Source of the DNA: a virus
Lineage: Duplodnaviria; Heunggongvirae; Uroviricota; Caudoviricetes
DNA length: 64,000 nucleotides
Reading direction: 5' to 3' (one strand)
Virus record (IMG/VR): IMGVR_UViG_2617270980_000003
In this document: one piece after another, positions 6,978-62,116 of the stretch
Numbering within the stretch: position 1 is the first letter of the stretch
How the letters are laid out: the number at the start of each line of letters is the position of its first letter
Position numbers and translations under genes: made by a program
The notes under the pieces: model-generated
Databases searched by the model: none
What the model was told of the DNA's origin: nothing
Seen by the model: only the letters and a program-made list of their open reading frames with translations

Positions 6978-7036
6978 TCGTCATGCTCCATAAACGACAA
7001 AACCGCCCGGAGGCGGTTTCACATAAACGTTTTTCA

Positions 7037-42316: not shown

Positions 42317-42389
42317 GTTCTTTCCTGCCGGTTGGTTTCTGTTTTTCCATGATGTCAGTTGCTAAGTCATTGTCTCAACGCGTTTTAGT

Positions 42390-42407
42390 TGTCAGAGACG
42401 GCCCACA
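42390..42407. promoter_or_regulatory. Ogr-type late promoter element TGT-N12-ACA in the O/P divergent intergenic region
   Basis: TGTCAGAGACGGCCCACA; shares the 18-bp stretch CGTTTTAGTTGTCAGAGA with the D/FI region. Confidence 0.5.
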
Positions 42408-42472
42408 ACCCAAACAGCGGGAACGGCCCACGCGCGCGGGTTAATCTCTCCATCGAAACGAGAGGACACCGC

Positions 42473-44197
42473 ATGATCCAGGACGCATTTGTAAGACAGA
42501 GAGCAAAGCAGCTTTACTGGCAGGGCTACCCGCCAGCAGAGATCGCACGCCTGATGGGTATCAGTCAGAACACGGTTTATTCGTGGAAAAAGCGCGACGA
42601 ATGGGACGAAACGCCCGCGATTCAGCGCGTCACACAATCTATTGATGCCCGGTTATGCCAAATCGCGATGAAACCAACAAAGACCGGCGGCGATCTGAAG
42701 GAAATCGACGCGCTCACGCGCCAGGTGAAGAAGCTGGCAGAAGGCCAACCGGCGCAACCCTTCAAGAAAGCGCGCGCGGGCAAGAAGAAAAACCACTTCA
42801 CCGAAGCGCAGATCGCCGCGCTGCGGGAAAAAATTCAGGACTCTCTGGCCTGGCATCAGCAGGGATGGTTTGAACAGCGCCAGCAACGAAACCGCATGAT
42901 CCTGAAAAGTCGCCAGATTGGCGCAACCTGGTATTTTGCCCGCGAAGCGCTATTACAGGCGCTGCGGGATGACGTTAAGCACGGATACCAACGCAACCAG
43001 ATTTTTCTGTCAGCGTCACGCCGCCAGGCGCACCAGTTCCGGGGATTCATTCAGAAGATTGCCGAAGAGGTAGACGTAGAACTAAAGGGCGGTGACAAAA
43101 TTTTGCTGTCTAACGGGGCTGAATTGCATTTTCTCGGCACGTCTGCCGCTACTGCGCAGAGCTACACCGGCAACCTGTTTTTTGATGAATTTTTCTGGGT
43201 AGGCAACTTTGCCAACCTTCGCAAAGTGGCTGGCGCTATGGCAACCCTGAAAGGGCTTACGCGCACTTACTTTTCAACGCCATCGAGCGAAAGCCACGAA
43301 GCCTACCCCTTCTGGACGGGCAAGCGCTGGAATGAGAAGCGGGCCAAGTCCAGCAGGGTAGACTTCGACACAAGCTGGAAAACGCTAAACAGCGGCCTAT
43401 TGTGCCCGGACAAAACCTGGCGGCAGATTGTCACCCTAAAGGACGTGATCGACCACGGCTGGGAGTTCACCGACCTGGAAGAAATCCAGGACGAAAACAC
43501 CCCGGACGAATACACCAACCTGTACATGTGTGAGTTCGTCAGAGAAGGCGAGGCTGTTTTCTCACTCAATCAGCTACTGACGTGTGGCGCGGACGGCTAC
43601 GACGACTGGCAGGACTGGAAACCCTACGCACCCCGCCCGCTGGGTGATCGTGAAGTCTGGATAGGCTACGACGCCAACGGCGGCAGCGGCAACGGTGACA
43701 GCGGCGCTGTTTCCGTGGTTGCCCCTCCCCTTGTCAGTGGCGGCAAGTTCCGCACGATAGAGACGCGCCAGCTACGCGGGATGGAGTTTGAAGAACAGGC
43801 CAAAGTGATCGAAGACCTGACGATGAAATATAACGTTCGACACATCGCAATTGACGGCACCGGCATCGGTGAAGCGGTCTGGCAACTGGTCAAAAAGTTC
43901 TTCCCGGCTTCGGTCTGTTTCATAATGTCGCTGTCATCAAAGCGCACCCTGGTACTGAAAATGCAACAGGTGATCCGCGCGGGGCGCTGGGAGTATGACC
44001 GCAGTGAACAGGCGCTAGTGTCAGCATTCAACGCTGTCAGAAAGATCACCACCCCCGGCGGACAAGTCACTTATGACACCGACCGCGCGCGCGGAGTCAG
44101 TCACGGCGACTTAGCCTGGGCCAATATGCTGGCAGTCATCAACGAGCCGCTTGGACGCGAGAACGGCGGCGGCGGTAGTTTCGTTATGGAGTTTTAA
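42473..44197 (+). CDS. P: terminase large (ATPase) subunit P
   Basis: About 574 aa; ATG at 42473 with GAGAGGA upstream; ORF-track TTG start at 42389 lies inside the promoter element. Confidence 0.9.
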   Translation: MIQDAFVRQRAKQLYWQGYPPAEIARLMGISQNTVYSWKKRDEWDETPAIQRVTQSIDARLCQIAMKPTKTGGDLKEIDALTRQVKKLAEGQPAQPFKKARAGKKKNHFTEAQIAALREKIQDSLAWHQQGWFEQRQQRNRMILKSRQIGATWYFAREALLQALRDDVKHGYQRNQIFLSASRRQAHQFRGFIQKIAEEVDVELKGGDKILLSNGAELHFLGTSAATAQSYTGNLFFDEFFWVGNFANLRKVAGAMATLKGLTRTYFSTPSSESHEAYPFWTGKRWNEKRAKSSRVDFDTSWKTLNSGLLCPDKTWRQIVTLKDVIDHGWEFTDLEEIQDENTPDEYTNLYMCEFVREGEAVFSLNQLLTCGADGYDDWQDWKPYAPRPLGDREVWIGYDANGGSGNGDSGAVSVVAPPLVSGGKFRTIETRQLRGMEFEEQAKVIEDLTMKYNVRHIAIDGTGIGEAVWQLVKKFFPASVCFIMSLSSKRTLVLKMQQVIRAGRWEYDRSEQALVSAFNAVRKITTPGGQVTYDTDRARGVSHGDLAWANMLAVINEPLGRENGGGGSFVMEF

Positions 44198-45258
44198 TGA
44201 ACACAACAACACATGAAAGCGGTATGACCATGCTTACTGACGGCGCGCAACAGGCTGATATTGGCGAAGCACTAAAGCGCGATCCCGCTCTGAGCGCCTT
44301 CACCTTTGATGGGCCATACCAGGTCGCGGACGCTTACGACCTACTCGACAATATGTATTGCGCCGACAACGGCAGATATTACGAAACGCCGGTGGACTGG
44401 TACGGGCTTGCGCGTTCATTCGGCAAAGCATCCTGGCACCAGTCAGCGCTGTACTTCAAGCGCAACGCGCTGGCGGGATGCTTTATTCCACACCCGCTAC
44501 TGTCTCGCCAGACGTTCTCCGCCCTGGCGCTTGACTGGTTTGTGTTTGGCAACTTCTATCTTGAAGAACGAAAGAACCGGCTAGGCGGGCGGCTACCGCT
44601 TCGCCATTCCCCTGCGAAGTACACCCGGCGCGGCACCGACCTGGACACGTACTGGTTTATCAGGCAGTGGAAAGACGAATGCGCCTTTGAAACCGGCACA
44701 GTTTGCCACGTGCTGAACCCCGATATTCACCAGGAAATCTACGGGATGCCGGAATATATGGGCACCCTGCTGTCAGCCAGCCTGTCACACTCGGCGGACA
44801 TGTTTCGCAAAATGTACTATGAGAACGGATCTCATGCTGGCTGCATTCTTTACATCGGCACATCACAGGTAGATGACGCTGGTGTAAAACAGATACAGCA
44901 AACACTGGCAGGAGCCAGGAACAAAGGCGCATTTAAGAACGTAGTGATCCACGCACCAGGCGGCGGCAAAGATGGGGTACAACTGATGCCCTTCAGCCAG
45001 ATATCTGCAAAGGATGAGTTTTTAAATATTAAATCAGCTACGCGTGATGACATCCTTGCCGCTCACCGCGTACCACCGCAACTGATGGGGGCCATGCCGG
45101 ACGGCAACGGCTCATTCGGTGATATGGAGAAAGCCGCGCGCGTGTTTGCCATCAACGAACTGATGCCAGCAATGGAAGCACTGAAGCACGTCAACGACTG
45201 GCTTGGCGAAGAAGTGATCCGCTTTAAACCTTACGCCCTGCTTGAATCCACCAAATAA
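44197..45258 (+). CDS. Q: portal protein Q
   Basis: 353 aa immediately after P, start overlapping P stop. Confidence 0.9.
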   Translation: MNTTTHESGMTMLTDGAQQADIGEALKRDPALSAFTFDGPYQVADAYDLLDNMYCADNGRYYETPVDWYGLARSFGKASWHQSALYFKRNALAGCFIPHPLLSRQTFSALALDWFVFGNFYLEERKNRLGGRLPLRHSPAKYTRRGTDLDTYWFIRQWKDECAFETGTVCHVLNPDIHQEIYGMPEYMGTLLSASLSHSADMFRKMYYENGSHAGCILYIGTSQVDDAGVKQIQQTLAGARNKGAFKNVVIHAPGGGKDGVQLMPFSQISAKDEFLNIKSATRDDILAAHRVPPQLMGAMPDGNGSFGDMEKAARVFAINELMPAMEALKHVNDWLGEEVIRFKPYALLESTK

Positions 45259-45419
45259 CCACACCGCCGCCAGTCCGGCGGCGCTCTTAGCATCACATCA
45301 ACACACGGCGCGCCAGCGCCATTCTAAGCGCCCCATCATCTAAACACGCCATTACCCGCACACAACACACAGAACGCAGCAGCGCGCCAGAATTGCGCCA
45401 ATTTCCCTATATTTGAGGC

Positions 45420-45470
45420 ATCCCCCTACCCACCCGCCGCGCGGGCTTTCCCCCCGTCACCTGCGCGCAA
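45420..45470. other. putative P2-type cos region
   Basis: GC-rich GCGGGCTTTCCCCCCGTCACC about 180 bp beyond Q stop; its reverse complement resembles the P2 cohesive end GGCGAGGCGGGGAAAGCAC as recalled. Confidence 0.3.
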
Positions 45471-45663
45471 CGAACACTCGTGTTTTCGTGCACTTGCAGA
45501 TCCACCGCCAGCCCCCGCAGATCCTGCCTCGATAATCCCAAAAAGGGGCTGATTTTATTGTGCATTTTTGCGCACAATCGTGCATCACTTTACTCTATTG
45601 AAAAGTAACCTCATGCCTAGTTATGATGCCGTTAAATCATTAAATAAATGAGGAAAAGAAATT

Positions 45664-47013
45664 ATGCGATTGACCGCTCCTGTTAAAGCGTTCTCAGATG
45701 GTTTTAGTACAGCAGATGACATATTTGGACGTAAAAAACTTCATGACATCATCATGCGGGTAGCAACAAATGCCCCAGATAAAAGTCTTGTACTTGCGCT
45801 CAATGATGAATGGGGTAACGGAAAAACCTCATTTGTAAAAATGATGTCATCAGAAATAAATAAAAACCATGCTGACAACTTTGACGTTATTTACTTTGAC
45901 GCTTTTGAAAATGACTATCAATCAGACCCATTTGTAGCCTTAACATCAAAAATTTATTCACTCATAAAAAAAGAAGATGGAAAGCTTAAAAACCTCGGGA
46001 AAGAGTTATTATCCATTGGTAAAAAACTAGGCGCGTCATTCGCACTTAATGGTGCAAAATTTGCCGTAAGCACTTTCACAAGTGGATTAGTCTCAGGTAA
46101 CGCACTGGAGAAAGCAAGTGATGCCATCAGTGACTCTCTCACATCACCTATTGAAGAGTACATTGAAGAAAAAATAAAAACGAGCGAGAGTGAGTTAGCA
46201 ACAATTGAGCAATTTAGAGCATTGCTGACCAAGATTCACACTGAGTGTGGGAAAAAAATAATATTTATAATTGATGAGCTAGACAGGTCGCGACCTGATT
46301 TTTCCCTTGACTTGCTAGAGAAAATAAAACATATATTTTCAGTGGAAGGTTTTGTTTTCTTACTAGTAGTTAACCGTGAGCAGTTTGAAAAAAGTATAGA
46401 GTGTAGATATGGGAGCATAAATACAAGATTATATTTAAATAAATTTATTCATTATTGGTTTACTCTTCCTAAAAAAAGTATGCTCTCAGTAGGCTGCCGA
46501 GCAGGCTATGAACGTTCAACGTTAACACAATATCTCCTGTCGTTAGATCAAGGGAATGACATACTGATTCGGAATGGTTCTCTCGTAAAAACCCTCGCGT
46601 ATCTTCTAGAAATGAATAACTGTTCACTGCGAGAGGCTGAGCGTTGCTATTCAACATTCGCAATAATGAACGACCCCAGCGAAGTAAATTCCTACCGACA
46701 TGAAATATTTCATGTTGCCATCGCACTAGTTGCTTTCTTGAAAATATTCAACCAATCCTTACTCATGGAAATATTAAACAAAAAACTGACAGAAGATGAG
46801 ATATTTAAACGATTATCAATTCCTGTAAACCTTGTCGATGTTTCTGAGATTTATTATATTGCAATATTGTTAAAATACCACTTAGCCACCGATGAAGAAC
46901 TACGTTCCTCTGATATGCTCACTGAGTACGCATTCATGGCTGTAATACCTGGACAACGAGTCAAATGGTTTGAAATGATGTATGAGAAGATCGAAGGCTT
47001 TGATATTAACTGA
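45664..47013 (+). CDS. KAP-family P-loop NTPase (soluble; no TM insert evident), cargo in P2 old/tin hotspot
   Basis: Walker A LNDEWGNGKTSF and Walker B IIFIIDELDR; AT-rich; own SD (GAGGAAAAG); lies between cos/Q and gene A on the opposite strand to A. Confidence 0.8.
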   Translation: MRLTAPVKAFSDGFSTADDIFGRKKLHDIIMRVATNAPDKSLVLALNDEWGNGKTSFVKMMSSEINKNHADNFDVIYFDAFENDYQSDPFVALTSKIYSLIKKEDGKLKNLGKELLSIGKKLGASFALNGAKFAVSTFTSGLVSGNALEKASDAISDSLTSPIEEYIEEKIKTSESELATIEQFRALLTKIHTECGKKIIFIIDELDRSRPDFSLDLLEKIKHIFSVEGFVFLLVVNREQFEKSIECRYGSINTRLYLNKFIHYWFTLPKKSMLSVGCRAGYERSTLTQYLLSLDQGNDILIRNGSLVKTLAYLLEMNNCSLREAERCYSTFAIMNDPSEVNSYRHEIFHVAIALVAFLKIFNQSLLMEILNKKLTEDEIFKRLSIPVNLVDVSEIYYIAILLKYHLATDEELRSSDMLTEYAFMAVIPGQRVKWFEMMYEKIEGFDIN

Positions 47014-47292
47014 TAAGCCATATTATCTTTTATCTCTATTTTGAAGCAATAAAACTAGAAGTAAACTCTAAAAAGCCGCCAATCCCGGCGGTCTTTGAAG
47101 GGCATTACAATTTCGTGGCGCTCAGTTATACATGGATTCTTAGCAAGGACCAAGCCGCGACACACTACATTGTAGCTCCCCGCTATGTGATTTGAAGTTG
47201 CTGGCAATCAAAAAATGCTCCCTTTAGTACCACTAATTTTGTAGAGTATGGTTAACTTTGAAAAGTTGTAATACGTCAACTAAGGAACAGCG

Positions 47293-48444
47293 ATGTCATC
47301 AGAAAAAACAATAGAACGTTTCGTTGCAGCAGATGTTAGCGGTGCAATCTGGTTACGATTAAAACGATTAATGAGTGCGCAGCTCTGTAAGAAAATAATA
47401 GAAAATAATCATCCGTCATTGCAAGAGGATGTATTGATTAAAAAATCCATTGGAATGTCCTCCGCAATACGAAGTGCAATCGGATATTGGGAGACTGAAA
47501 ATGGCGGACTCAATTCAAAAATTTTATCCAGATATTATGCATTATTACAGATAAGCTTAGCTGAACAAATATCATCAGGGGATCCTAACGACGATTTAAA
47601 AAATGTTCAAAAGCATACGGTTTCAGGTCATGGGCTATTCACACAATCTGTTGAAAATGAAACATTCCCAGACAATATAAAAATAGGCTGTCTTAAAAGT
47701 GGACATTTTTATTCATATGCAAAGCATATAGGAATTGATATCAAACAGTATGCAACAGAAAGACGTCCAAAAAAAGATGAAGATTTAGACCCATCACGCA
47801 CCTATTCTTTAACTGATTTATTAAAACGAATTCCAGAATTAAGACCGCTTTTACAAGAAACTTTCGGTGAAGATCCACTTTCATTCCAAATTGGACAAGC
47901 AAGTAGAAACATGCTCTTAAGATCAAGGAATCAGTCACTCGGTGGCCTATCGCGTCCTAAACCAGAGTTCTCAGGTTTTACATATGCCGCAATTTATCCC
48001 AAAGGTAGCGATGTAACAGCAGAAGAGCTTAATTCTTACAACATTGGAATAAAAAACATTGAAATTGAGTCAGAAGAAAACCTCACAAAATATGACCAAC
48101 CATATTTTGTAGGAGAAGTCCATCACCCTGAAGATGAGCTATGGTGGGATTATGTCACGACACACAAATCTGGTTATTGTGGAACGAGTGTAATTGTCCC
48201 ATTTTGGGGAACTCAAGATCCCTTTGTATTACACTTAGTCGTATTATATACATTAAGCATTATAGTCAGGTATCTCCCTGACACTTGGTATGAGATTGAG
48301 CATGGCAAACTTGATTATATTAATTCCCTTTTGGAAAATTATTTAGCTATTTTTGATAGTGTACTGCCTAAACTTGCGGTTGAAAGATTAACGAAAGTTC
48401 ATTTGGTAGTAACAGCACCCGATAGCATGAATTCCCCTATCTAA
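47293..48444 (+). CDS. hypothetical protein, 383 aa, no recognised domain; hotspot cargo
   Basis: Long AT-rich ORF with SD (AAGGAACAG), preceded by its own AT-rich intergenic region and a hairpin after the KAP gene. Confidence 0.6.
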   Translation: MSSEKTIERFVAADVSGAIWLRLKRLMSAQLCKKIIENNHPSLQEDVLIKKSIGMSSAIRSAIGYWETENGGLNSKILSRYYALLQISLAEQISSGDPNDDLKNVQKHTVSGHGLFTQSVENETFPDNIKIGCLKSGHFYSYAKHIGIDIKQYATERRPKKDEDLDPSRTYSLTDLLKRIPELRPLLQETFGEDPLSFQIGQASRNMLLRSRNQSLGGLSRPKPEFSGFTYAAIYPKGSDVTAEELNSYNIGIKNIEIESEENLTKYDQPYFVGEVHHPEDELWWDYVTTHKSGYCGTSVIVPFWGTQDPFVLHLVVLYTLSIIVRYLPDTWYEIEHGKLDYINSLLENYLAIFDSVLPKLAVERLTKVHLVVTAPDSMNSPI

Positions 48445-48513
48445 CCACTTTCAGAATAACAAGATTTTTTACAACACCTTGTTATTCTGAAACTTATACC
48501 TTACAACACATTA

Positions 48514-48825
48514 TCAATCATCATCTTGGTCATCCCCAGTGTCGCGAACGCATGATTTTGACTCAAAGTATTTTTTTTCCGCAGCGGTAATCAGGGCTTG
48601 GTGTTCAGGGAAATCACGAAACACGTCTACTGCGGGCCATTCAATTTTCGTCACAACCAACTTAGGCCTACTTTCCACCTCAGCTTCATCCTGGCTGATA
48701 TAATGACTTTTTGACTCACGTTCCTCATGCGAAGATTCTCGATAATAGAGCCAATTTTGATAGTCAGCTTCCCGTTCATAATCATCAAAGTACTTGCCCA
48801 CGCTTCCCCCCATTAATGAGCGCAA
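48514..48825 (-). CDS. hypothetical acidic small protein downstream of gene A
   Basis: 103-aa ORF overlapping the A stop region; Asp-rich C-terminus. Confidence 0.35.
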   Translation of the reverse strand: MRSLMGGSVGKYFDDYEREADYQNWLYYRESSHEERESKSHYISQDEAEVESRPKLVVTKIEWPAVDVFRDFPEHQALITAAEKKYFESKSCVRDTGDDQDDD

Positions 48826-51364
48826 CCCTTAATCTTTCAAGGAGTACATCATTCTCCCGCTTCCTTTCCGCTTTAACTCTCTGCTTAACTTCATCGCGGC
48901 GCTGTTCGACTACTTCTACCCCCTTCAGCTTCATAGTACAAGCCAAGCAGAGCTTTTCATCGCCATAGGTTATATCATCCTGATTTAACTCCGCATTACA
49001 ATCTCTAGCCCTACAGTAAATTGCTTTGGTCTTTTCTACCAGATAGCCATCCTTCAGATAAACATGTCGATCATCAAAAGAAAGCAAAGCCCCGCGACGA
49101 AGGGCATCAATATCAGGCTTGGACTTAATTCCCCAAGAGGAAAGCTGATAGCGAAGGTGAGCAGTCATTGGTGTGGCCTCCACAACACTGCTCCGCCGGG
49201 TTGCTGATTCATCGCGGATAGCCGCCGCCACTTTCATGTAATTTTCAGCGCGCTCCTGATCTGCGCTATCGCAATCTGAAGCGGCAATAGCATTGGCAAG
49301 CGACTCAAACACATCAGCAGGTGATTTTTGCTGTTTTGGTTTGTAATTTCTGATGCTCTCATTAAGCCGTTTTTTCTGCTCTCGGCTCATTTGACCAATT
49401 TCATATTGTTCTGGATCTTCAGGCGGTGGATTTACCGCCCCTTGATTTGTATGTTTTTTGTACTCAGTACAGTTATTGACACGAGTCCAAGAGGGCGCGG
49501 GCGCGCCCTTAAGGTCAAAACCTCGATCGGCGGCGTCGTCTGCTTTTGGCTTCTTTTTGACAATGCGATAAGAATGGAGGCGGGTTTCAACCGGAGGAAC
49601 GGTCGATGCTGGCATGACCACCCCTTTAATAACCCTCTGAAACTCGCCGTAACTGCTCGGCTCATCCCGATATTGATACCAGGCGCGCAACACAAGCCTA
49701 TTCCGTGTCACGAACGGACCACCCTGCAAGGTGATGTAGTCCTGCCAGTTCCCGGCATGGGCGGCGCGGTGTAACTCACCGAAAACCGGACTGATTCGAT
49801 CTGCCATTTCCTGATTCTTCAGGCGGCGTAACTCACGCCAGACGGACACCGGCGCGCCACCCAGAAACTGAAACTGACGAATGCCCCAGCATGAAGCCCA
49901 GGCAGTAGCGTGTTTTGCTGTCTCCTTCAGTGGGCGTCCGCTTTCGTCGTCGCTTTCACCATCCAGTGCATAACCGTCGATGTTTTTAGATATGTACTTA
50001 ACGACATATCCAGTAGCGCTCCCCAAAGCCGGATCTATCGGCTTAAGTTCAAAGCGGGGCTGTTTGCCATTCTTGCCGGTGAGTTCATCAGCATCTTCAC
50101 GCGTGGCGTAGTCTTCCATCACTTCCAGCAATTCGCCGGTATGCTCTGGGGCTGTGAACAGAAGGCCATGCCAATGCGGAGTACCATCATGGTGAGACTC
50201 TGCAACACGAAGGCCAAAAACAGAAATCTCACGGCGCGCAAGCTCCGCGCGGATCAGTTGCCAGACGCGATTAAGGTAGTTTTGTGTCTTGCGGGGGCTG
50301 GCTCCGTTCCATTTGCGGTTACGATGCCCGAACGCTGTAAAGGCATGATATTTAGACGGCGCGGTCAGGGTGAAGAAACTGCCGGCAAACCCGCTTTCCG
50401 TTGCCACCTTCTCAAATCCACCAATGCGCGTCATCAACTCAACACGGCGCTTTTCAGGATTAGAAATGCTCTTATCAATCTGCTCTATCAGCGAAATGCG
50501 CTCACCAGTTACCTGATCTTCAAGTTCAAGGCGGCTCATAATTGCGCGGCTACGCTTACGGCGTGAATCCCACTGCGTAACGTGGTGTTTGCTGCAATAC
50601 GGTGAAACATCGCGGCGCACGTCACCATAGGCAATGTGCAAATGCTCGCGCCAGCGGCGGGCGTACTTGCGCAGGAGGCGTGACCAAAAGCGATCATGAA
50701 GGGTTTTTTGTATTGCTGCTGTCGCTTCATCAAGCGCCATCCGGCGCTTCTTCGCCCAGGGCGGCACTAACCTGAAATACGCAATCAGCCTGGAGCCTTC
50801 ACGCAGCATGCGTTTGGTGTATTCAGTATCGTTGAACACACTTGCACCCTCGCTCACTTCAGCCAAAACAGCATTGGCATAAATGGCTATGTCCTGAGCC
50901 AGCAAATCAATATCTTCATCCGTGCAATCCGCCAGATTATTAAAGCGGCGGACAAGTTCACGCAGATTTTCAAACGAGTGAAACAGTGGGTTTAGTTCAG
51001 AGAAAATGATCCACTCATTGTCTTCTGGCACAGCGTATTGTTTCGTGACGTTTCTGACGTGTGGAAGCTCGCGCTTAACGATGTCGCGCAACTTCAGTTT
51101 TGCGATATGGCGCCCTTTATCCTCGTGAACGGTATTTATGTAAGAGGCAATGCGGCGGCGAATGAAGATAGGCAACGGCTTGAGGGGATTTTCAACCCAG
51201 GCGAAAAACTCCTGCTCTTGACCCAATTCATATAGATCAACAGCGGGAGCCTTATCAACGAAGATGGCGGCTTTTGGCTCATTCCAGGCGTAAGCATACC
51301 GGGCTGGCTCGATAGAGCCTCCCGGCATGTTGGTCATGCTATGAGAGCGGCGAAATGAAGACAT
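48785..51364 (-). CDS. A: replication initiation protein A (rolling-circle endonuclease)
   Basis: 859 aa; TLTAPSKYH, HHDGTPHWH, GYVVKYISKNIDGYALDG, TAWAS motifs match P2 gpA as recalled. Confidence 0.9.
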   Translation of the reverse strand: MSSFRRSHSMTNMPGGSIEPARYAYAWNEPKAAIFVDKAPAVDLYELGQEQEFFAWVENPLKPLPIFIRRRIASYINTVHEDKGRHIAKLKLRDIVKRELPHVRNVTKQYAVPEDNEWIIFSELNPLFHSFENLRELVRRFNNLADCTDEDIDLLAQDIAIYANAVLAEVSEGASVFNDTEYTKRMLREGSRLIAYFRLVPPWAKKRRMALDEATAAIQKTLHDRFWSRLLRKYARRWREHLHIAYGDVRRDVSPYCSKHHVTQWDSRRKRSRAIMSRLELEDQVTGERISLIEQIDKSISNPEKRRVELMTRIGGFEKVATESGFAGSFFTLTAPSKYHAFTAFGHRNRKWNGASPRKTQNYLNRVWQLIRAELARREISVFGLRVAESHHDGTPHWHGLLFTAPEHTGELLEVMEDYATREDADELTGKNGKQPRFELKPIDPALGSATGYVVKYISKNIDGYALDGESDDESGRPLKETAKHATAWASCWGIRQFQFLGGAPVSVWRELRRLKNQEMADRISPVFGELHRAAHAGNWQDYITLQGGPFVTRNRLVLRAWYQYRDEPSSYGEFQRVIKGVVMPASTVPPVETRLHSYRIVKKKPKADDAADRGFDLKGAPAPSWTRVNNCTEYKKHTNQGAVNPPPEDPEQYEIGQMSREQKKRLNESIRNYKPKQQKSPADVFESLANAIAASDCDSADQERAENYMKVAAAIRDESATRRSSVVEATPMTAHLRYQLSSWGIKSKPDIDALRRGALLSFDDRHVYLKDGYLVEKTKAIYCRARDCNAELNQDDITYGDEKLCLACTMKLKGVEVVEQRRDEVKQRVKAERKRENDVLLERLRVALINGGKRGQVL

Positions 51365-51546: not shown

Positions 51547-52011
51547 TCAGAATGGCGCTCCATCATCAAAATCGAACGGGGGAGGCGTCGTCTTCCATGT
51601 CACCGGTTTACCTGGTTTACATTTCCGCGCGGCCTTGACTGTTGGATAGTTGAGGGAATGCCGGACAACTTCATCAGTCCACAAATCGTGCGCCTCGAAA
51701 TCAACGCGCCAGCAACCTTTGCTAATGCAGCGGCGTGAAAAAACGCGCGTAACAACGGCGCAAACCGTATGACTTTCAGGCTCGGCTTCAGCGGCAGGAT
51801 CAAAGCCAAGAAAAACAAGCTCACTACTGTGAGACTTAATCAGGGGATCAAGAACCGCCCCGAAAGACTTACGAAGCGTCTTTTCAACATCAGGGCCAGC
51901 CAAAAGACCTGCATAACCAGCGTGAATTAATGCAGCCTCTTTTGCCTTTTCTAACGCCGCTATCGCGCCTTGCAGATAGCTCACGTGATCGTTAATGGAC
52001 GGAGTAATCAT
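51547..52011 (-). CDS. hypothetical protein between dam and A
   Basis: About 154 aa from MITPSIN, start overlapping dam stop; not recognised as P2 B. Confidence 0.4.
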   Translation of the reverse strand: MITPSINDHVSYLQGAIAALEKAKEAALIHAGYAGLLAGPDVEKTLRKSFGAVLDPLIKSHSSELVFLGFDPAAEAEPESHTVCAVVTRVFSRRCISKGCWRVDFEAHDLWTDEVVRHSLNYPTVKAARKCKPGKPVTWKTTPPPFDFDDGAPF

Positions 52012-53003
52012 CAGAAGTCCTCTGCTGCTGTGTATGAATCGCAGATCTCGCAGTTGCGACAGCAAAAGGTATCGCTTCCAGATTCATAGCCATCGCCAGC
52101 AACGGCAGGGCAACAGGTAGCGCAATAACCACGCCCTACTTGCCCGCACTCGTCACAGACGAGCAGCGAACCAATCACCTCACCCGCGAGATTGCGTGTT
52201 TTTGCTCCCACAGAACGCCGGACTTCGAATGAGTTAAGGGTGAACGGGTAGTAAATTTGGCGCGTTTCCGGGGTGTCACTGCCGGAAATAACAGAGGGTA
52301 TTTTTGCCTGGTTGTAGAGGCGTGAAAGCATCGCAACCAGGGCGCGATGGTCTTCATCAGTAAAGGGCTTACCGTATGCAGTAAAATTTGCAGTCTCGCT
52401 GGCTGGCAGGTATGGAGGATCGCAATAAACCACGCAGCCTGAATGCCCGATAGATAGAGGAATTGTTTCTCTGAAATCACCATGCAGGAACATTGCCCCT
52501 TTGTCCCAAGCCCTTTTTGCAAAATGCTGAATCTCAGCCACAGGGAAAATTGGCTTCTTACGAAAACCAAAAGGAACGTTGAATTCATTCTTTAAATTAA
52601 CACGGTAAACACCGTTGTAGCAGTGACGATTCAAATAAAGAAATAGCGCTGCATATTTAACTAATTCATCATTTGTATATTGCTCTCTATGCCCTGCGTA
52701 CTCGCGATTAAAAATATTGAAGTCATCACGATTTATGTAATATGCATCTTCATTATTACCAGTCAAAAACAAGGCGGATGCATAAGTTAAAAGCGCTTCT
52801 GTGTTGCGCTTAACCATAGAGAAGAAATTAATTAGGGCTGCATTGCTATCACACAGAATATAGGTTTTATAGTCTGTATTCAGAAAGACGCTACCACTAC
52901 CCACAAAAGGCTCAACGAGGCATTCACCCTGCGGCAGAGCATCCAGTACATGAGGCATCGCGCGAGACTTGCCGCCAGCCCAGATCAGAGGGGAGTTAAT
53001 CAC
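52011..53003 (-). CDS. dam: DNA adenine methyltransferase (Dam-like, D12 class) with Cys-rich C-terminal extension
   Basis: PLIWAGGK near N-terminus, FVGSGSVF (AdoMet), DPPY catalytic motif; GTG start at 53001-53003 with AAGGAG 7 nt upstream; C-terminal ~50 aa contains about 10 Cys. Confidence 0.8.
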   Translation of the reverse strand: MINSPLIWAGGKSRAMPHVLDALPQGECLVEPFVGSGSVFLNTDYKTYILCDSNAALINFFSMVKRNTEALLTYASALFLTGNNEDAYYINRDDFNIFNREYAGHREQYTNDELVKYAALFLYLNRHCYNGVYRVNLKNEFNVPFGFRKKPIFPVAEIQHFAKRAWDKGAMFLHGDFRETIPLSIGHSGCVVYCDPPYLPASETANFTAYGKPFTDEDHRALVAMLSRLYNQAKIPSVISGSDTPETRQIYYPFTLNSFEVRRSVGAKTRNLAGEVIGSLLVCDECGQVGRGYCATCCPAVAGDGYESGSDTFCCRNCEICDSYTAAEDF

Positions 53004-53163
53004 TTTTTTGCTCCTTGATTTCTGCGGCCTGTTCTCTGTTGTCGATCCAGTTTTCCAGGCTGCGATAAATTTCATTGGTGGACAGTTTTTCTTTTTTCAG
53101 CAAGGTTAATTTGATACGTAACAATCCAAGCAGGTGCGCGCGTTCATTTGTTTGAATTGTCAT
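53001..53163 (-). CDS. small hypothetical protein (about 54 aa) translationally coupled to dam
   Basis: ATG at 53161-53163, stop overlapping the dam GTG start (GTGATTAA); not in ORF track because below its size cut-off. Confidence 0.3.
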
Positions 53164-56458: not shown

Positions 56459-57486
<1,028 letters not shown>

Positions 57487-57807
57487 GGATATTTATCAGG
57501 ATTTATCGGCTTCAAATCCCCGGATATGTTAAATCTTACCTCACCAGTGATGGGCACTGGCGGGAGGGGGGTGTCAATCTGATAAACACAAAGGCGACTA
57601 TGGATTACACAAAACTACCTAAACAAACTTTTGCTGATTTAATCGCACTCAGGCAAGCAGTCGTAGCTCTAATCAACTTGTTGCCGGAGAAGGAAAAGGA
57701 ATTAGTTAAAGCGCTTCTTAACAGAACTGCCGCCGATTTTTCATCATATCCACTGACAGATGACCTTGCGGACCTTCCTGAATTAATTGCAGCGTCCGCC
57801 AATAAGC

Positions 57808-58359
57808 TTACTGAAGAGATTTACCCTCCTCAAAAATCTTCACAAAATTCCTGCGAGTAACTTCAATGCAATAATCGTAAAACGCCGCAAACTGCTCATC
57901 GCGGCGTTTTTTTTCATCTTCAGAAGGAATCAGCACCGACAATTTTTTATTCAGATCAGCGACGCTGCCCTCCAGTTTTTCAATGGGCGATTCAATATCA
58001 TCTTTTTCTGACCGCAATGCCGTCGGTGGCGTCTTCAGAGAACCAGTAATTCTTCCCGGTAGCTTTCCTTTGTAGGTTATCCACACATTCTGCGCCTCTA
58101 AAATTATGGGGCGCTTTTCCGGCGACTGCTCATCCCCTTCACATAACCCGGCAGCAACATCCAGGAAGACCTGTCTGATGCTCCTTCTGGCTGCTGCCTC
58201 ATAAAACTCCAGCGCGGCACCTTCAACACGGTCCAGCGAGATGTCCAGGTCAAAAATTTCACCGTCAAAGTGTTTTTTGTCCCGTAAGGCTACAGTTACC
58301 GCCACTTTATTCTCAAAATTGCGAACTCCTTTCACAACCAGTTCATAGTCTTGAGTCAT
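57808..58359 (-). CDS. hypothetical protein between holin and endolysin (YdfR/DUF1327-like position)
   Basis: ORF MTQDYELVVKGVRNFENKV... at the ydfR position of Qin-like lysis cassettes. Confidence 0.45.
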   Translation of the reverse strand: MTQDYELVVKGVRNFENKVAVTVALRDKKHFDGEIFDLDISLDRVEGAALEFYEAAARRSIRQVFLDVAAGLCEGDEQSPEKRPIILEAQNVWITYKGKLPGRITGSLKTPPTALRSEKDDIESPIEKLEGSVADLNKKLSVLIPSEDEKKRRDEQFAAFYDYCIEVTRRNFVKIFEEGKSLQ

Positions 58360-58363
58360 TGGA

Positions 58364-58579
58364 TTACTCTCTTCTCGCAACCTTACGCCTGTCTTCTTTA
58401 ATCTTGAAATAAAGGTTTGTCAGATACGTCAGCATGCCAAATACCAGACTACCCAATACACCTATTGCCGCCCACTGTGAGGGCGTGACTTTATCGAGCA
58501 ACTGTAAAAACCAGTAGCCAGCACTGCCTGCAGAGGTGCTGTAGGCGATGCCCGTTGTTAACTTATCCATGGATTTCAT
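58364..58579 (-). CDS. pinholin (phage 21 S-like, dual-start MKSM)
   Basis: [45 protein letters not shown]... matches S21 pinholin as recalled; paired with SAR endolysin. Confidence 0.85.
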
Positions 58580-58769
58580 AGCCTCACCTCCGCAGATAAC
58601 GGATGGTGTACACGGTTTGGTTCGAAGAAGGAAAGAAGTTACATTAGCGTAAGGCCCGAACATCTATTCAAAAAGAAAAACGCCAGCAATTATTCTGGCG
58701 TAGCTAAAAATATCGTATAATCTTACACTTCAAAAAATAACTTTATAAAATGCCATCACATCATATCTT

Positions 58770-59492
58770 CTAAGAAAATCTTGATAAATATTGGTGCGGA
58801 GGCACACCAAAATATCCTCTAAAAACACTTACAAAATATGATGCATTGTCATACCCGCATATTCCCGCCACCTTGCCGACAGTATGGTTACTGTAGATCA
58901 ATAATCTTTGCGCCATCATCATTCGTTCTTCAAGAATTAATTTACTAAACGATAATCCTTCGTCTTTTAATTTTCTTTTTAACAAACTCTCGCTCATATA
59001 TAATCTTGAAGATATATCACAAAGTCTCCATGACGCTGAGATATCCGAGTGAATAATAGCCTTAACTTTACAACCTAAGCTATTAAGACTTCCGAACAAA
59101 AAACTTTGCACTATTTTCTCTGAAGATAAGACAGCAAGACATGCAAGTGATATTTGATTTCTAACTACATCCACGGTTTTGCTATCACAATTCAAGCATG
59201 CAACCAAGTTCCTTAACAATGAAAAATCTTCACATTCTACTATCAAGTATGACGGATAAAACCTTCTTACAGAAAAAGGTGAGAGTGTGTAGTTTTTAAA
59301 GAAATCATTAACTGTTTTCTCCTCAATATCTACGATCATTAGATGATCTGTATTTGACGAAAAAAGATCTTTTAAATTGTATTCAATGAGGACAGCATTT
59401 CCTTTTTTAAACAAAATATCTTCTTTACCAATTCGGACACCAAACGAGTTCAACACCAAAATGATAGAACATATGTATGGCATATTATCCAC
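58770..59492 (-). CDS. AraC-family transcriptional regulator (AT-rich cargo)
   Basis: 240 aa; C-terminal AraC-type HTH (GYDNASYFVSVFRGYFGVPP); low-GC codon usage. Confidence 0.75.
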   Translation of the reverse strand: MDNMPYICSIILVLNSFGVRIGKEDILFKKGNAVLIEYNLKDLFSSNTDHLMIVDIEEKTVNDFFKNYTLSPFSVRRFYPSYLIVECEDFSLLRNLVACLNCDSKTVDVVRNQISLACLAVLSSEKIVQSFLFGSLNSLGCKVKAIIHSDISASWRLCDISSRLYMSESLLKRKLKDEGLSFSKLILEERMMMAQRLLIYSNHTVGKVAGICGYDNASYFVSVFRGYFGVPPHQYLSRFS

Positions 59493-59889
59493 CTGATATC
59501 ATTGGGGTTACACCAGGTAAGTATAGGTGGAAAATCAATATTCGCCAGTTCAACAATAAGGAAAATCTCATTGCATCACAACTATAAAACCATGTGTTTA
59601 ACTCACAAAAAACAAATCATTAAACTAATCTGTTATATTATAATAGCTGCGTGCAATAATAATATTATATGCTCTTTATATTCACTTGAAATATCTTCAT
59701 ATAAAAACAGATTGAATAAAATCTTTTGGGGCTGGTATGTTTACCAACATTAAATTGCATCTCAATGTTTTCTTTAGCGTGAACAGGATTTTTATAAAAA
59801 CTGACACTATGAGCATCATAGCGTAGTTTTTACGATTGTAAATATCCTGCATACAGGAACTCATCACTTTCAGATGATATCGCATACAG

Positions 59890-60849
59890 TTAATTCACCA
59901 TCAGTCTTAGAGCCAGTTCTTCCGGATAGGGATCGAAGTAATTCTGTGTAAGCAAGTAATCATTAGGATACTCACCCAGATAATGCTTCAGCAGAGTCAA
60001 CGGCGCAAGAAGAGGCAATGTGCCAAAGCGATAGTTAAGTATAACCTCGCTCAACTCTTTACGCTGGCGTGTACTTAAGTAATTACTAAAATACCCCTGT
60101 ATATGCATCAGCACATTCGTGTGATTTTTACGTGATGCTGGTTTTCTGAGAATCGCCATCAGATTATCACGATACACCTCAAAGTATGATTCAAGGTCCG
60201 CCCACTCGTGTATTGCAGCCACAAATGGTCCCATATCTTTATAGCCTGCCTGGCTATGCGCCAACAACTGAAGCTTATAACGACTATGAAAAGCTAATAA
60301 CTCTCTTCTTGATAATTTCTCCTTGTAAAGGTGATTGAGCTCATGCAAAGCAAAAACTCTTTCAATAAAATTCTCACGAAGCACTGGATCATGTAATCGC
60401 CCATCCTCTTCAACCGGTAGCCAGGAAAACTTTTCCATCAAAGTGCTCGTAAATAGTCCCACTCCATCTTTACGACCTCGATTACCATTTTCATCATAGA
60501 CACGCACGCGCTCCATGCCACAGCTGGGAGATTTAGCACAAACCACAAACCCCGATACATCCTTTAATTTGTCCATATAAGAACGACTAAACTCTGTCAT
60601 TCTCTCTGTCACATCCTCATTCTGGTCGTGGCTGAAACACATCCGTATATTTCCTTGCTTCGAGCGCACAAGTCGTAGAGCAGGACGCGGAACTGGCAGC
60701 CCTATAGCCATTTCCGGACATACTGGTCTGAATGTTACCCATTCCACTAATTTGTCCATTAAAAAGTCATCTCTTTTGTGACCACCATCAAAACGAACAG
60801 CAGAACCGCCCAAACAACCGCTGATCCCAATCACAGGTTTTTTTATCAT
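59890..60849 (-). CDS. DUF523 (TudS-like) / DUF1722 fusion protein, YbgA-like
   Basis: N-terminal GISGCLGGSAVRFDGGHK... (DUF523-like Cys motif region) and long C-terminal helical part. Confidence 0.6.
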   Translation of the reverse strand: MIKKPVIGISGCLGGSAVRFDGGHKRDDFLMDKLVEWVTFRPVCPEMAIGLPVPRPALRLVRSKQGNIRMCFSHDQNEDVTERMTEFSRSYMDKLKDVSGFVVCAKSPSCGMERVRVYDENGNRGRKDGVGLFTSTLMEKFSWLPVEEDGRLHDPVLRENFIERVFALHELNHLYKEKLSRRELLAFHSRYKLQLLAHSQAGYKDMGPFVAAIHEWADLESYFEVYRDNLMAILRKPASRKNHTNVLMHIQGYFSNYLSTRQRKELSEVILNYRFGTLPLLAPLTLLKHYLGEYPNDYLLTQNYFDPYPEELALRLMVN

Positions 60850-61041
60850 TTCCTCCCCCTTGACTAATTCATTAACACATAAACTTTGTAGTGCACGGAC
60901 TAAATTGCCTTTCTGGCTTCATCACTGACAATTTTTCTGTTATTGACTATTCCTAATATAGTAGGAAAGTTCTTTAAGTGATCGGTCGTACTCATCTATC
61001 TTTCATACTTACTCTCAACTATCAAAAGTACAGGATTTATT

Positions 61042-61566
61042 ATGAAGTTATGGCCTGTGTTGACTGGCATTGCACTCTCTTTCACTCTTATAGCATGTAA
61101 GGCCCCGACACCACCTAAAGGTGTGCAGCCGATTACAAATTTTGACGCCAACCGCTACCTCGGAAAATGGTATGAAATAGCTCGCCTCGAGAACTGGTTC
61201 GAACGTGGTCTGGAACAGGTCAGCGCTACTTATGAAAAACGGAACGACGGAGGGATTCGCGTACTTAACCGTGGATACGATCCAACGAAAAACAAATGGA
61301 GCGAGAGCGAAGGTAAAGCATACTTTACTGGAGATACTAAAACTGCAGCGTTGAAAGTTTCGTTTTTTGGCCCCTTCTATGGTGGCTATAATGTAATCAA
61401 ACTGGATGATGAGTATAAGTATGCTCTTGTCAGTGGTCCGAACAGAGAATACCTATGGATTCTGGCAAGGACCCAAACTATTCCAGATAATGTAAAAGCA
61501 GACTATGTGCGTACCGCTCAAAAGTTGGGATTCAATGTCAATGAACTATTATGGGTTAAACAATAA
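61042..61566 (+). CDS. outer-membrane lipocalin (Blc-like lipoprotein)
   Basis: Lipoprotein signal (LIAC), NFDANRYLGKWYEIARLENWFERGLE, KVSFFGPFYGGYNVI matches E. coli Blc as recalled. Confidence 0.85.
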   Translation: MKLWPVLTGIALSFTLIACKAPTPPKGVQPITNFDANRYLGKWYEIARLENWFERGLEQVSATYEKRNDGGIRVLNRGYDPTKNKWSESEGKAYFTGDTKTAALKVSFFGPFYGGYNVIKLDDEYKYALVSGPNREYLWILARTQTIPDNVKADYVRTAQKLGFNVNELLWVKQ

Positions 61567-61593
61567 AATCCCCACCCGAAATGATACTTATTA

Positions 61594-61621
61594 GAAAAAA
61601 ACCAGCCTTTGGGGAGGCTGG
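61594..61621 (-). terminator. intrinsic terminator downstream of Q (candidate tR' of late promoter pR')
   Basis: Hairpin CCAGCCT-TTGGGG-AGGCTGG followed on the minus strand by T7; about 100 bp downstream of Q stop. Confidence 0.5.
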
Positions 61622-61721
61622 CTAAATCAGGAAACAAGCTGTTATATGATAATAACTACGTTGCGATTCCAACATTTAAAATGTTAGACTAATGAAAATC
61701 AGACAGCAACTTTTCCTTTAA

Positions 61722-62114
61722 TTATTTCGAACAATCAGCATCCATCTCCAATCGGAGATCCAACACCATCAGCATGCCCTCCACTACGCCCTCAGCTTTC
61801 TGGAGCATCCTGCCAACCCAACAATCAGATCGCCCATGCTTACGTGCAAGCGCCATAAAAGTCATGCCGCCGACATAATAGTCCACCAATAAATCATGTA
61901 AATCGCTGTTGTTTTTTTTCAGGCGAGCCATACATTCACAAATGATCATCGCGTCATCGTCACAGCATTGCGGACGAGATCTTACTTTTGAAGGAATTAA
62001 TCCCTTAAAACCGGCGGCAATGGACGACCAGGTCACATCTTCATGATTATTAGCCGCCCATGCCCCCCAACGCTCAAGAACCATCTGAATATCACGCATC
62101 AACTTACTCCACAA
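61722..62114 (-). CDS. late antiterminator Q (QuuQ/QuuD-like)
   Basis: [34 protein letters not shown]... matches E. coli prophage Quu proteins as recalled. Confidence 0.85.
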
Positions 62115-62116
62115 AA

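What the first reader, a model, noticed from the sequence alone, without database searches (positions are those of the whole stretch)
45259..48830. Uncharacterised AT-rich cargo in the P2 cos-proximal (old/tin) hotspot: soluble KAP P-loop NTPase plus 383-aa orphan protein
Between portal Q/cos and replication gene A, where P2 carries old and tin and where P2-like prophages are known to swap anti-phage systems, sit two low-GC genes on the strand opposite to A. One is a KAP-family NTPase (Walker A EWGNGKTS, Walker B IIFIIDELDR) without the membrane insert typical of many KAP proteins. The other is a 383-aa protein with no motif I can place. A hairpin and AT-rich promoter-like spacer between them suggest two independent units or a two-gene system. 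An acidic 103-aa ORF follows. I cannot assign either gene to a named defence system, so this is the best candidate for an undescribed anti-phage or abortive-infection module.
Basis: partly seen in the sequence, partly recalled or inferred. Interest (0 to 1): 0.85.

Follow-up and report, generated by a model that had tools for sequence, protein, structure and literature searches.

The report
Two stacked single-gene phage-defence candidates
A P2-like prophage of E. coli carries, in its known swap-site for anti-phage genes, two unrelated single-gene modules: an ATPase already listed as a defence candidate, and a "YaaC" protein that I find has the fold of HEPN RNA-cutting suicide enzymes and has not yet been linked to defence.

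Summary
Between portal/cos and replication gene A lie two low-GC genes (GC 0.36-0.37, flanks 0.51-0.56) on the strand opposite to A.

1. The KAP NTPase (45664-47013) can be placed. It matches PADLOC candidate family PDC-S20 (E 1e-74). Homologues of 72-84% identity sit alone at this same P2 site.
3. The two genes are not a conserved pair. None of 19 distant KAP loci has a YaaC, and none of 80 metagenomic YaaC loci has a KAP. Homologues of YaaC at 78-84% identity sit alone in P4 satellites.
4. The acidic ORF is a phage backbone gene that follows gene A whatever the cargo.

YaaC relatives lie next to retron, DRT4, Lamassu-like, pAgo/SIR2 and restriction-modification genes. Best reading: two independent, stacked, single-gene anti-phage modules. 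YaaC is the new part, a candidate HEPN-type abortive-infection protein. Nothing has been tested experimentally. Interest is moderate.

The parts
45261..45284 (.). GC-rich hairpin directly after the portal stop codon (terminator-like)
   Evidence: Terminator scan. Fold dG -14.7 kcal/mol, z -3.1.
45285..45597 (.). GC-rich non-coding backbone segment after the portal gene. It is presumed to hold cos, which I did not test.
   Evidence: Window 45259-45584 is 92.7% identical to the same position in the E. coli ES1 P2-like prophage, which carries different cargo. GC 0.53.
45598..45627 (+). Promoter-like site (TTGAAA-18-TATGAT, 10 of 12) upstream of the KAP gene; GAGGA ribosome-binding site before the ATG at 45664
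   Evidence: Consensus scan only, and the number of sites is no higher than in shuffles. Sequence read.
45664..47013 (+). Soluble KAP-family P-loop NTPase, 449 aa, member of PADLOC candidate family PDC-S20
   Evidence: Pfam PF07693 6.7e-38. PADLOC PDLC04959 1.2e-74. phrog_8614 1.9e-122. AF2 model pLDDT 77; best PDB folds are RdrA of RADAR, then ORC/Cdc6. Homologues sit alone at the same P2 site.
47014..47292 (.). Lineage-specific spacer with hairpin 47072-47096. It is the junction between the two modules.
   Evidence: Homology with the KAP-only prophage L037 ends at 47014. Homology with P4-borne YaaC genes starts at 47279. No match in 5,426 complete E. coli genomes. Hairpin dG -18.9, z -3.6.
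47293..48444 (+). YaaC-family protein, 383 aa: HEPN-like four-helix core (about 45-93 and 310-367) split by a ~200-aa alpha/beta insert
48449..48492 (.). Perfect 15-bp inverted repeat between the convergent YaaC and orf99 genes (candidate bidirectional terminator)
   Evidence: Fold dG -17.1 kcal/mol, z -9.2, 0 of 200 shuffles as stable.
48514..48825 (-). Acidic small ORF (99 aa from the ATG at 48813). It is a phage backbone gene overlapping the 3' end of gene A, not cargo.
   Evidence: 27 homologues at 54-99% identity. It always follows and overlaps an A gene, next to different cargo. No Pfam, PADLOC or PHROG hit.
48785..51364 (-). P2-type replication initiator gene A (right border of the hotspot)
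   Evidence: phrog_91 3.6e-225. The 5' two-thirds are 98.4% identical to the E. coli ES1 prophage, but the 3' 660 nt are not shared.

Best explanation
The interval holds two independent single-gene cargo modules stacked in the P2 Q/cos-to-A defence hotspot of an E. coli prophage. A backbone small ORF lies next to them.

Module 1 is a soluble KAP-family P-loop NTPase of PADLOC candidate family PDC-S20. I infer that it works as an NTP-driven sensor or switch, as the tested KAP-type defence proteins do. It would bind a phage product, oligomerise into an AAA+-like ring (its best structural matches are RdrA and ORC/Cdc6), and block infection in a way that needs NTP hydrolysis. It has no recognisable effector domain.

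Module 2 is a YaaC-family protein. I infer that it is a HEPN-derived, self-contained abortive-infection nuclease. Its four-helix HEPN core carries the invariant Arg (R326) at the end of helix 3. The large insert between helices 2 and 3 carries invariant histidines (H113, H138, H278). This resembles AF0298- and AbiV-type HEPN domains, which draw their catalytic His from that insert. The insert would also be the sensor that holds the enzyme off until a phage trigger binds, and RNA (tRNA or mRNA) would then be cut.

Shown here: location, family membership, fold, conservation, independence of the two genes, and their association with defence genes and mobile elements. Inferred: anti-phage activity, RNase chemistry, triggers and oligomeric state.
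For: Hotspot and swapping: the same backbone (Cox, Dam, 859-aa A, orf95-99) carries KAP+YaaC here, a 454-aa PDC-S20 KAP in another E. coli, and an unannotated 274-aa gene in Salmonella. E. coli ES1 has a Dam methylase instead.

KAP: PDC-S20 E 1.2e-74. Homologues at 84% and 72% identity sit alone between portal and A, and DNA homology stops exactly at the KAP stop codon. Other single-gene KAP-type NTPases have been shown to defend: Reve from P4 gives 10^2-10^6-fold protection against Drexlerviridae (bioRxiv 10.64898/2026.02.27.708500), and EF_KAP needs its Walker B motif (PMC12632615).

YaaC: homologues at 78-84% identity sit alone downstream of the P4 primase. A 2026 survey recognises that site as a minor P4 defence hotspot. 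The shared DNA block is the ORF plus 14 bp. Other relatives lie in a lambdoid prophage accessory region and next to RES/DUF5677/RT. Further relatives lie next to retron-XI RT-protease and AbiEii, DRT4, LmuB-like/PDC-M68B plus HEC-04, and Wadjet-like genes. In 80 metagenomic loci the neighbours are almost all different (147 clusters from 161 proteins) and include pAgo/SIR2, type I and IIG RM, AbiEii, Hhe, LmuA, TIR, Schlafen and AbiJ.

Confidence: 0.55

Rival explanations
1. KAP and YaaC form a functional two-gene system in this prophage. The KAP NTPase would be the sensor or regulator and the HEPN-like YaaC the effector. More generally, YaaC would be a plug-in effector that pairs with different upstream NTPases or proteases.
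For: The genes are adjacent and co-oriented, with similar GC (0.367 and 0.363), no clear promoter before YaaC, and a weak terminator between them. In several distant loci YaaC lies directly downstream of a large co-oriented gene: a 1300-aa CHAT protein (193-bp gap), an LmuB-like ATPase (0-40 bp gap), and an 815-aa protein. KAP lacks an effector domain, and a published view holds that KAP domains regulate linked effectors (PMC12632615).
Against: Each gene occurs alone at 72-84% identity in P2 or P4 hotspots. Co-occurrence is 0 of 19 KAP loci and 0 of 80 YaaC loci. The homology blocks end at the KAP stop codon and begin 14 bp before the YaaC start, with a lineage-specific spacer between them, which indicates two separate acquisitions. 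The upstream neighbours of YaaC share no family, and some are complete units in their own right (P4 primase, umuDC, Wadjet-like operon).
Confidence: 0.17
2. One or both genes are cargo with a non-defence role, for example in prophage or satellite conflict, lysogen fitness, or addiction/toxin functions. Alternatively, they are decaying passengers.
For: The hotspot also holds non-defence cargo, such as a Dam methylase in E. coli ES1. YaaC has the E110V change at a near-invariant site. A frameshifted YaaC copy exists on one viral contig. Some YaaC neighbours are housekeeping genes. The cargo is absent from 5,426 complete E. coli genomes.
Against: Both ORFs are intact and identical across many assemblies: the YaaC protein occurs on 60 contigs and in 113 index blocks. 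The E110V variant persists in a homologue of 88% identity, which argues against recent decay. Defence-gene neighbourhoods recur across phyla. In a 2026 survey, 6 of 8 randomly chosen unknown P4 hotspot loci protected against phages.
Confidence: 0.2
3. YaaC is not a nuclease. It would be a non-catalytic HEPN-like binding or adaptor protein, for example a decoy or sensor that acts by sequestering a phage factor. The HEPN resemblance might also be only a generic four-helix bundle.
Confidence: 0.25

Closest known systems
PADLOC PDC-S20 (single-gene 'phage defence candidate' family of KAP-type NTPases)
   Same: Full-length HMM match (E 1.2e-74, residues 18-403). Same size (~450 aa). Same single-gene habit in P2 hotspots.
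   Different: None structurally: this protein is a member. The family is only a computational candidate, and I found no experimental paper on it.
Reve (single-gene KAP/AAA_22 NTPase from a P4 satellite hotspot; bioRxiv 10.64898/2026.02.27.708500) and EF_KAP (PMC12632615)
   Same: Single-gene P-loop NTPases of the KAP type, carried in P2/P4-type or recombinase-linked hotspots, with demonstrated phage protection. EF_KAP needs its Walker B motif.
   Different: No homology beyond Walker A and B. Reve (586 aa) against the window KAP gives blastp E 0.008 over 17 residues and no hit to the family HMM. EF_KAP has two transmembrane helices and a 322-aa C-terminal effector region. The window protein is soluble and has no extra domain.
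PifA (F plasmid) and QatA (QatABCD)
   Same: KAP NTPase domain. PADLOC PifA 1.8e-19 and QatA 4.7e-15, over residues ~18-275.
   Different: Only the NTPase core aligns. PifA is 720 aa. The QatA NCBIfam score is 53 bits against a cut-off of 600, and there are no qatBCD neighbours.
RdrA of RADAR
   Same: Best structural match of the KAP model (Foldseek E 1e-5, query TM-score 0.41-0.47). RdrA is a ring-forming defence ATPase.
   Different: RdrA is ~800-900 aa and works with the deaminase RdrB. There is no RdrB here and no sequence-level match.
HEPN superfamily, AF0298-like HEPN-T and AbiV type (PMC3710099)
   Different: The insert is ~200 aa and folds into its own alpha/beta domain, whereas inserts of up to ~60 aa are described. 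No sequence-profile match to any Pfam HEPN family. YaaC is not mentioned in that survey's main text.
HepS (Gifsy-1 prophage single-protein HEPN abortive-infection system; PMC13043305)
   Different: HepS is much smaller (218-residue chain) with a canonical active site. No sequence similarity. The trigger and target of YaaC are unknown.

Membership tests
KAP family P-loop NTPase (Pfam PF07693) | Profile match above the curated threshold | tested here: met
   131 bits against a cut-off of 20; residues 24-277
KAP family P-loop NTPase (Pfam PF07693) | Walker A GxxGxGK[ST] and Walker B hhhhDExD | tested here: met
   EWGNGKTS at 49-56 and IIFIIDELDR at 199-208. G51, G53, K54, D204, E205 and D207 are invariant in 41 homologues.
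KAP family P-loop NTPase (Pfam PF07693) | Transmembrane helices inserted between Walker A and B (typical of many members, not all) | tested here: not met
   No hydrophobic segment between residues 57 and 198. The AF2 model shows two long helices and a disordered loop at 130-172 there. This is a soluble subgroup.
PADLOC PDC-S20 | Near full-length match to the family HMM | tested here: met
   PDLC04959 E 1.2e-74, 250 bits, residues 18-403 on profile positions 18-390 of 464
PADLOC PDC-S20 | Acts as a stand-alone gene | tested here: met
   It is the sole cargo between portal and A in L034-L038 and L040-L041.
PADLOC PDC-S20 | Demonstrated anti-phage activity | not testable with these tools
   No paper in the held library mentions PDC-S20.
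QatABCD (QatA) | QatA equivalog score and qatBCD neighbours | tested here: not met
   NF041923 scores 53 bits against a cut-off of 600. The neighbours are the portal gene, YaaC and gene A.
Reve (P4 KAP-type system) | Sequence homology to the tested Reve protein | tested here: not met
   Only Walker-motif similarity by blastp (E 0.008 over 17 aa). The family HMM does not hit Reve.
YaaC family (Pfam PF14175) | Profile match above the curated threshold | tested here: met
   73 bits against a cut-off of 27; residues 48-366 on profile positions 29-307 of 307. Sources name the identical protein 'YaaC family protein'.
HEPN superfamily | [quoted passage not shown] | tested here: met
HEPN superfamily | Rx4-6H motif at the end of helix 3 | tested here: inconclusive
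   R326 is conserved in 120 of 121 sequences and sits at the end of helix 3. The +7 position is His in 75 and Tyr in 42 of 121, and Tyr in the window protein. This is the pattern described for the AF0298 and AbiV variants.
HEPN superfamily | Sequence-profile relation to a known HEPN family | tested here: not met
   Pfam scan of the insert-deleted core at E up to 10 returns only YaaC. A PDB profile search returns nothing.
HEPN superfamily | Metal-independent RNase activity | not testable with these tools
   Needs biochemistry.
Two-gene KAP+YaaC system | Conserved co-occurrence of the two genes | tested here: not met
   0 of 19 KAP loci have a YaaC. 0 of 80 metagenomic YaaC loci have a KAP. Close homologues occur singly.
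P2 Q/cos-to-A defence hotspot cargo (Rousset et al. 2022, PMC9122126) | Located between portal/cos and gene A, with different cargo in related prophages | tested here: met
   The hotspot is described in PMC9122126 and in 10.64898/2026.02.27.708500.

The most novel reading that the evidence does not exclude
YaaC (PF14175), a family of unknown function named after a B. subtilis gene, is a new clade of HEPN-derived immune nucleases with a ~200-aa sensor domain inserted between helices 2 and 3. The most novel reading goes further. YaaC would be a promoter-less, portable effector cassette that moves between P2 phages, P4 satellites, lambdoid prophages and defence islands. It would work either alone or plugged in behind different sensor ATPases or proteases: the KAP NTPase here, and LmuB-like or CHAT proteins elsewhere.
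Probability: 0.15. Interest if true: 0.72.

Novelty: new variant of a known kind. Interest (0 to 1): 0.5.

Why it matters
If YaaC is confirmed, a Pfam family of unknown function would gain a role. It would also add a structurally unusual HEPN design (a split core with a large inserted domain and a relocated histidine) to the set of single-protein abortive-infection systems. That set currently includes AbiV-like proteins and the recently solved HepS. The locus is also a clean natural example of defence genes stacking and moving between a helper phage (P2) and its satellite (P4). The YaaC gene is shared at 77-80% nucleotide identity as a bare ORF. The KAP gene would supply an experimental test case for PDC-S20, a candidate family that is catalogued but untested and is common in Enterobacterales P2-like prophages. 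The gain is incremental, because unknown genes in these hotspots are already expected to be defences: 6 of 8 were in a 2026 survey.

Tried and rejected
1. Two-gene system. Rejected as the main reading after context surveys: genome, viral and metagenome scans, local HMM searches and encoding-contig look-ups.
2. The KAP protein as Reve. I extracted the Reve DNA from the preprint's Dataset E1 and compared it; the two are not homologous.
3. The acidic ORF as cargo, antitoxin or anti-defence gene. Rejected, because it is a backbone gene tied to the 3' end of gene A.
5. N-terminal extensions of ~500-757-aa YaaC relatives. They have no Pfam domain, so they give no functional hint.
6. Origin of the 279-bp spacer. 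No match in the E. coli genomes.
7. Literature. No paper links YaaC, 'YaaC-like' or PDC-S20 to defence.
8. Phage genome collection. The cargo is absent at the DNA level. Only distant protein matches exist: YaaC 27% in one fecal phage contig, KAP about 30% in five records.
9. I could not obtain model coordinates, so the spatial clustering of R326, H113, H138 and E91 remains unchecked.
Full report
**Where we are**

The window is an E. coli chromosome segment. Its right flank (57000-63000) is 99.9% identical to many E. coli genomes. It carries a P2-like prophage with:
- terminase P (42389-44197, +);
- portal Q (44197-45258, +; TIGR01540 and phrog_68);
- replication gene A (48785-51364, -; phrog_91);
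- Dam-type methylase, Cox and repressor further right.

The same 31-kb element is in IMG/VR as a predicted virus at 100% identity. This prophage type is rare: 18 of 5,426 complete E. coli genomes share gene A similarity, and none carries the cargo.

**Observation**

- Both cargo ORFs are on the + strand, opposite to A. GC is 0.367 and 0.363, against 0.51-0.56 for the flanks.
- The first ORF has the stated Walker A and B motifs and a strong Pfam KAP_NTPase match. It has no hydrophobic insert between the motifs. The AlphaFold model puts two long helices and a disordered loop (130-172) there.
- The spacer hairpin exists (47072-47096, dG -18.9, z -3.6).
- A stronger, perfect 15-bp inverted repeat separates the second gene from the acidic ORF (48449-48492, z -9.2).
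- A 10/12 sigma-70-like site precedes the KAP gene (45598-45627). The scan finds no comparable site in the spacer before the second gene, and promoter-like sites are no more frequent than in shuffles.

**Gene 1: KAP NTPase**

- It matches PADLOC-DB family PDC-S20, a single-gene 'phage defence candidate', over nearly its whole length (E 1.2e-74). Matches to PifA (1.8e-19) and QatA (4.7e-15) are much weaker and cover only the NTPase core.
- The QatA equivalog model scores 53 bits against a cut-off of 600.
- The family of ~450-aa proteins is widespread in Enterobacterales.
- An 84%-identical homologue and a 72%-identical one (Klebsiella pneumoniae) are each the only gene between portal and A in P2-like prophages.
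- A 45%-identical PDC-S20 member occupies the same site in another E. coli prophage with the same backbone as the window.
- DNA homology between the window and the 84% relative runs from the portal gene to window 47014, one base past the KAP stop codon at 47013.
- The AF2 model (pLDDT 77) is closest to RdrA, the ring ATPase of RADAR (Foldseek E 1e-5), then to ORC/Cdc6 and clamp loaders. No effector domain is visible.

I found no paper on PDC-S20. Two recent preprints show that other single-gene KAP-type NTPases defend:
- Reve, from a P4 hotspot, is strong against Drexlerviridae.
- EF_KAP and three metagenomic relatives defend in Enterococcus, and EF_KAP needs its Walker B motif.

I extracted the Reve sequence from the preprint's dataset. 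It shares only the Walker motifs with the window protein. These proteins are therefore analogues, not relatives.

**Gene 2: not an orphan**

- It matches Pfam YaaC (PF14175; 73 bits, cut-off 27). Databases name the identical protein 'YaaC family protein'.
- It matches nothing in PADLOC, PHROGs or NCBIfam.
- The family is small: a profile search of 1.84 billion cluster representatives finds 404 proteins.
- The AlphaFold model is confident (pLDDT 92.6, pTM 0.91).
- Foldseek finds nothing in the PDB.

The model suggests a HEPN core made of helices 45-66, 73-93, 310-327 and 341-367, split by a ~200-residue alpha/beta insert. The HEPN survey of Anantharaman et al. states three relevant points:
[quoted passage not shown] - AF0298-like and AbiV families keep the basic residue, usually lack the motif His, and use another conserved His from that insert.

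YaaC fits this pattern.
- R326, at the end of helix 3, is conserved in 120 of 121 homologues.
- The +7 position is His in 75 and Tyr in 42, and Tyr in the window protein.
- H113 (in a T-E-x-G-H-G motif) and H138 are conserved in 120 of 121 sequences, and H278 in all 121. All three lie in the insert.

This is a structural and positional argument. No sequence-profile link to a HEPN family was found, and I could not inspect coordinates.

**The two genes are independent modules**

- YaaC homologues of 78% (Klebsiella oxytoca) and 84% (Serratia fonticola) identity lie alone just downstream of the primase gene of P4-like satellites. A 2026 survey lists the primase-to-att interval as a minor P4 defence hotspot.
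- The DNA shared with the window is only 47279-48443, that is the ORF plus 14 bp.
- None of 19 genomic loci with KAP relatives has a YaaC.
- None of 80 metagenomic YaaC loci has a KAP relative.
- The 279-bp spacer is specific to this lineage.

The simplest history is two separate insertions into one hotspot.

**Is YaaC defence-associated?**

Every context I examined is a mobile-element accessory site or a defence island.

| Context | Neighbouring genes or site |
|---|---|
| This window (E. coli) | P2 hotspot |
| Klebsiella oxytoca, Serratia fonticola | P4 primase-to-att site |
| Viral contig L048 | lambdoid prophage, after tail fibre genes and umuDC |
| Viral contig L049 | cluster with RES, DUF5677 and a reverse transcriptase |
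| Bradyrhizobium | CHAT, AbiEii, retron type XI RT-protease |
| Paraburkholderia | DRT4 |
| Viral contig L050 | LmuB-like/PDC-M68B abutting the YaaC start, then HEC-04 |
| Halomonas | Wadjet-like genes and a SWI2/SNF2 protein |
| Priestia | HEPN_Apea |

In the 80 metagenomic loci, the genes within two positions of YaaC fall into 147 clusters out of 161 proteins, with no general partner. Among 136 non-redundant neighbours, PADLOC and Pfam find short pAgo with SIR2, type I and IIG restriction-modification, AbiEii, Hhe, LmuA, mad8, PDC-S37, PDC-M66A, TIR, Schlafen/AlbA_2, DUF5677 and AbiJ domains. Housekeeping genes also occur among them. The tool reports counts per family, not per neighbour, so I cannot give an exact enrichment.

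**The acidic ORF**

It has 27 homologues at 54-99% identity in Escherichia, Salmonella, Citrobacter and Kluyvera. In every context examined it overlaps the 3' end of an A gene and precedes whatever cargo is present. The A gene there is usually 859 aa, but 813 aa in one locus and a 130-aa remnant in another. It is absent from the KAP-only relative with a different A gene terminus. It is therefore a backbone gene, positionally like P2 orf91 (from memory), and marks the right edge of the variable region. Its function is unknown.

**Mechanism**

I commit to two stacked, autonomous, single-protein defences.
- KAP: an NTP-dependent sensor or switch that probably oligomerises. Its effector step is unknown. 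This is an inference from family and fold.
- YaaC: a HEPN-type nuclease held inactive by its inserted domain until a phage cue arrives, then causing abortive infection. This follows the logic shown for HepS, where one prophage HEPN protein senses a tail-tip protein and cuts tRNA. It is an inference from fold, residue pattern and context.

Cautions:
- The catalytic His assignment is untested.
- The window copy carries Val at position 110, where 117 of 121 relatives have Glu.
- Co-transcription with KAP is possible, so synergy cannot be excluded.

**Verdict**

The finding is real, and its defence reading is reasonable, but it is less novel than proposed. One gene belongs to a catalogued candidate family, and the pair is not a system. 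The new element is the YaaC-HEPN link and its consistent defence-island ecology. I found that link in no defence database or paper available here.

Noticed in passing
window 47293-48444, residue 110 (codon at 47620-47622): The window's YaaC has Val at position 110, where 117 of 121 homologues have Glu (motif H-T-E-x-G-H-G, three residues before invariant H113). Only this protein, its identical cluster representative and an 88%-identical relative share the change. It may alter or weaken activity.
   Followed up: partly
window 48785-49444 (3' end of gene A) and 48514-48825: There is a mosaic joint inside gene A. The 5' two-thirds are 98.4% identical to the E. coli ES1 prophage, but the last ~660 nt and the overlapping acidic ORF are not shared. 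GC also falls to 0.45-0.48 there. The variable region of the hotspot therefore reaches into the C-terminus of A.
   Followed up: partly
L043-L046 positions 6453-7277 (-), Salmonella P2-like prophages: Prophages with the same backbone as the window carry, at the same hotspot, a 274-aa protein with no Pfam or PADLOC match. This is another unassigned cargo gene worth testing.
   Followed up: partly
L008 7220-8911, L053 9211-10902, L124 8544-11627: A SWI2/SNF2-type ATPase (with PADLOC REase_I-like and PDC-S64 matches in L008) lies directly downstream of YaaC relatives that are only 28-58% identical to each other. A 401-aa (up to 567-aa) protein recurs downstream in L067-L070, L126 and L127. Some YaaC sublineages may have fixed partners.
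   Followed up: partly
L050 / L112 6174-9158: A 595-aa LmuB-like SMC ATPase (PDC-M68B 7e-59, DUF2326) ends where the open reading frame of a 41%-identical YaaC gene begins, and HEC-04 follows. The layout looks like a Lamassu-like operon with YaaC in an effector-like position.
   Followed up: partly
L049 1695-2833: A 78-84%-identical YaaC copy on a viral contig is split into two overlapping frames (an apparent frameshift). It lies near RES-domain, DUF5677 and reverse-transcriptase genes.
   Followed up: no
L039 1-176: The Serratia fonticola P4-like satellite that carries YaaC after its primase also encodes, near delta, a 580-aa protein with faint KAP_NTPase and AAA_22 hits. Only its last 58 residues are in the locus, and they do not match Reve.
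   Followed up: partly
P0316, P0325, P0382, P0395: A subgroup of YaaC relatives is about 500 aa long (up to 757 aa). They have a conserved N-terminal extension of about 140 residues with no Pfam match.
   Followed up: partly
window 52011-53075 (-): The prophage's Dam-type methylase ORF (354 aa as listed; related prophages are called at 327-330 aa) ends in a Cys-rich tail (CDECGQ...CATCCP...CCRNCEICD) that looks like a zinc-binding extension.
   Followed up: no
window 47279-47292: The DNA shared between the P2-borne and P4-borne YaaC genes starts only 14 bp before the ATG, which covers the ribosome-binding site but no promoter. The gene seems to move as a promoter-less ORF that relies on upstream transcription.
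   Followed up: partly
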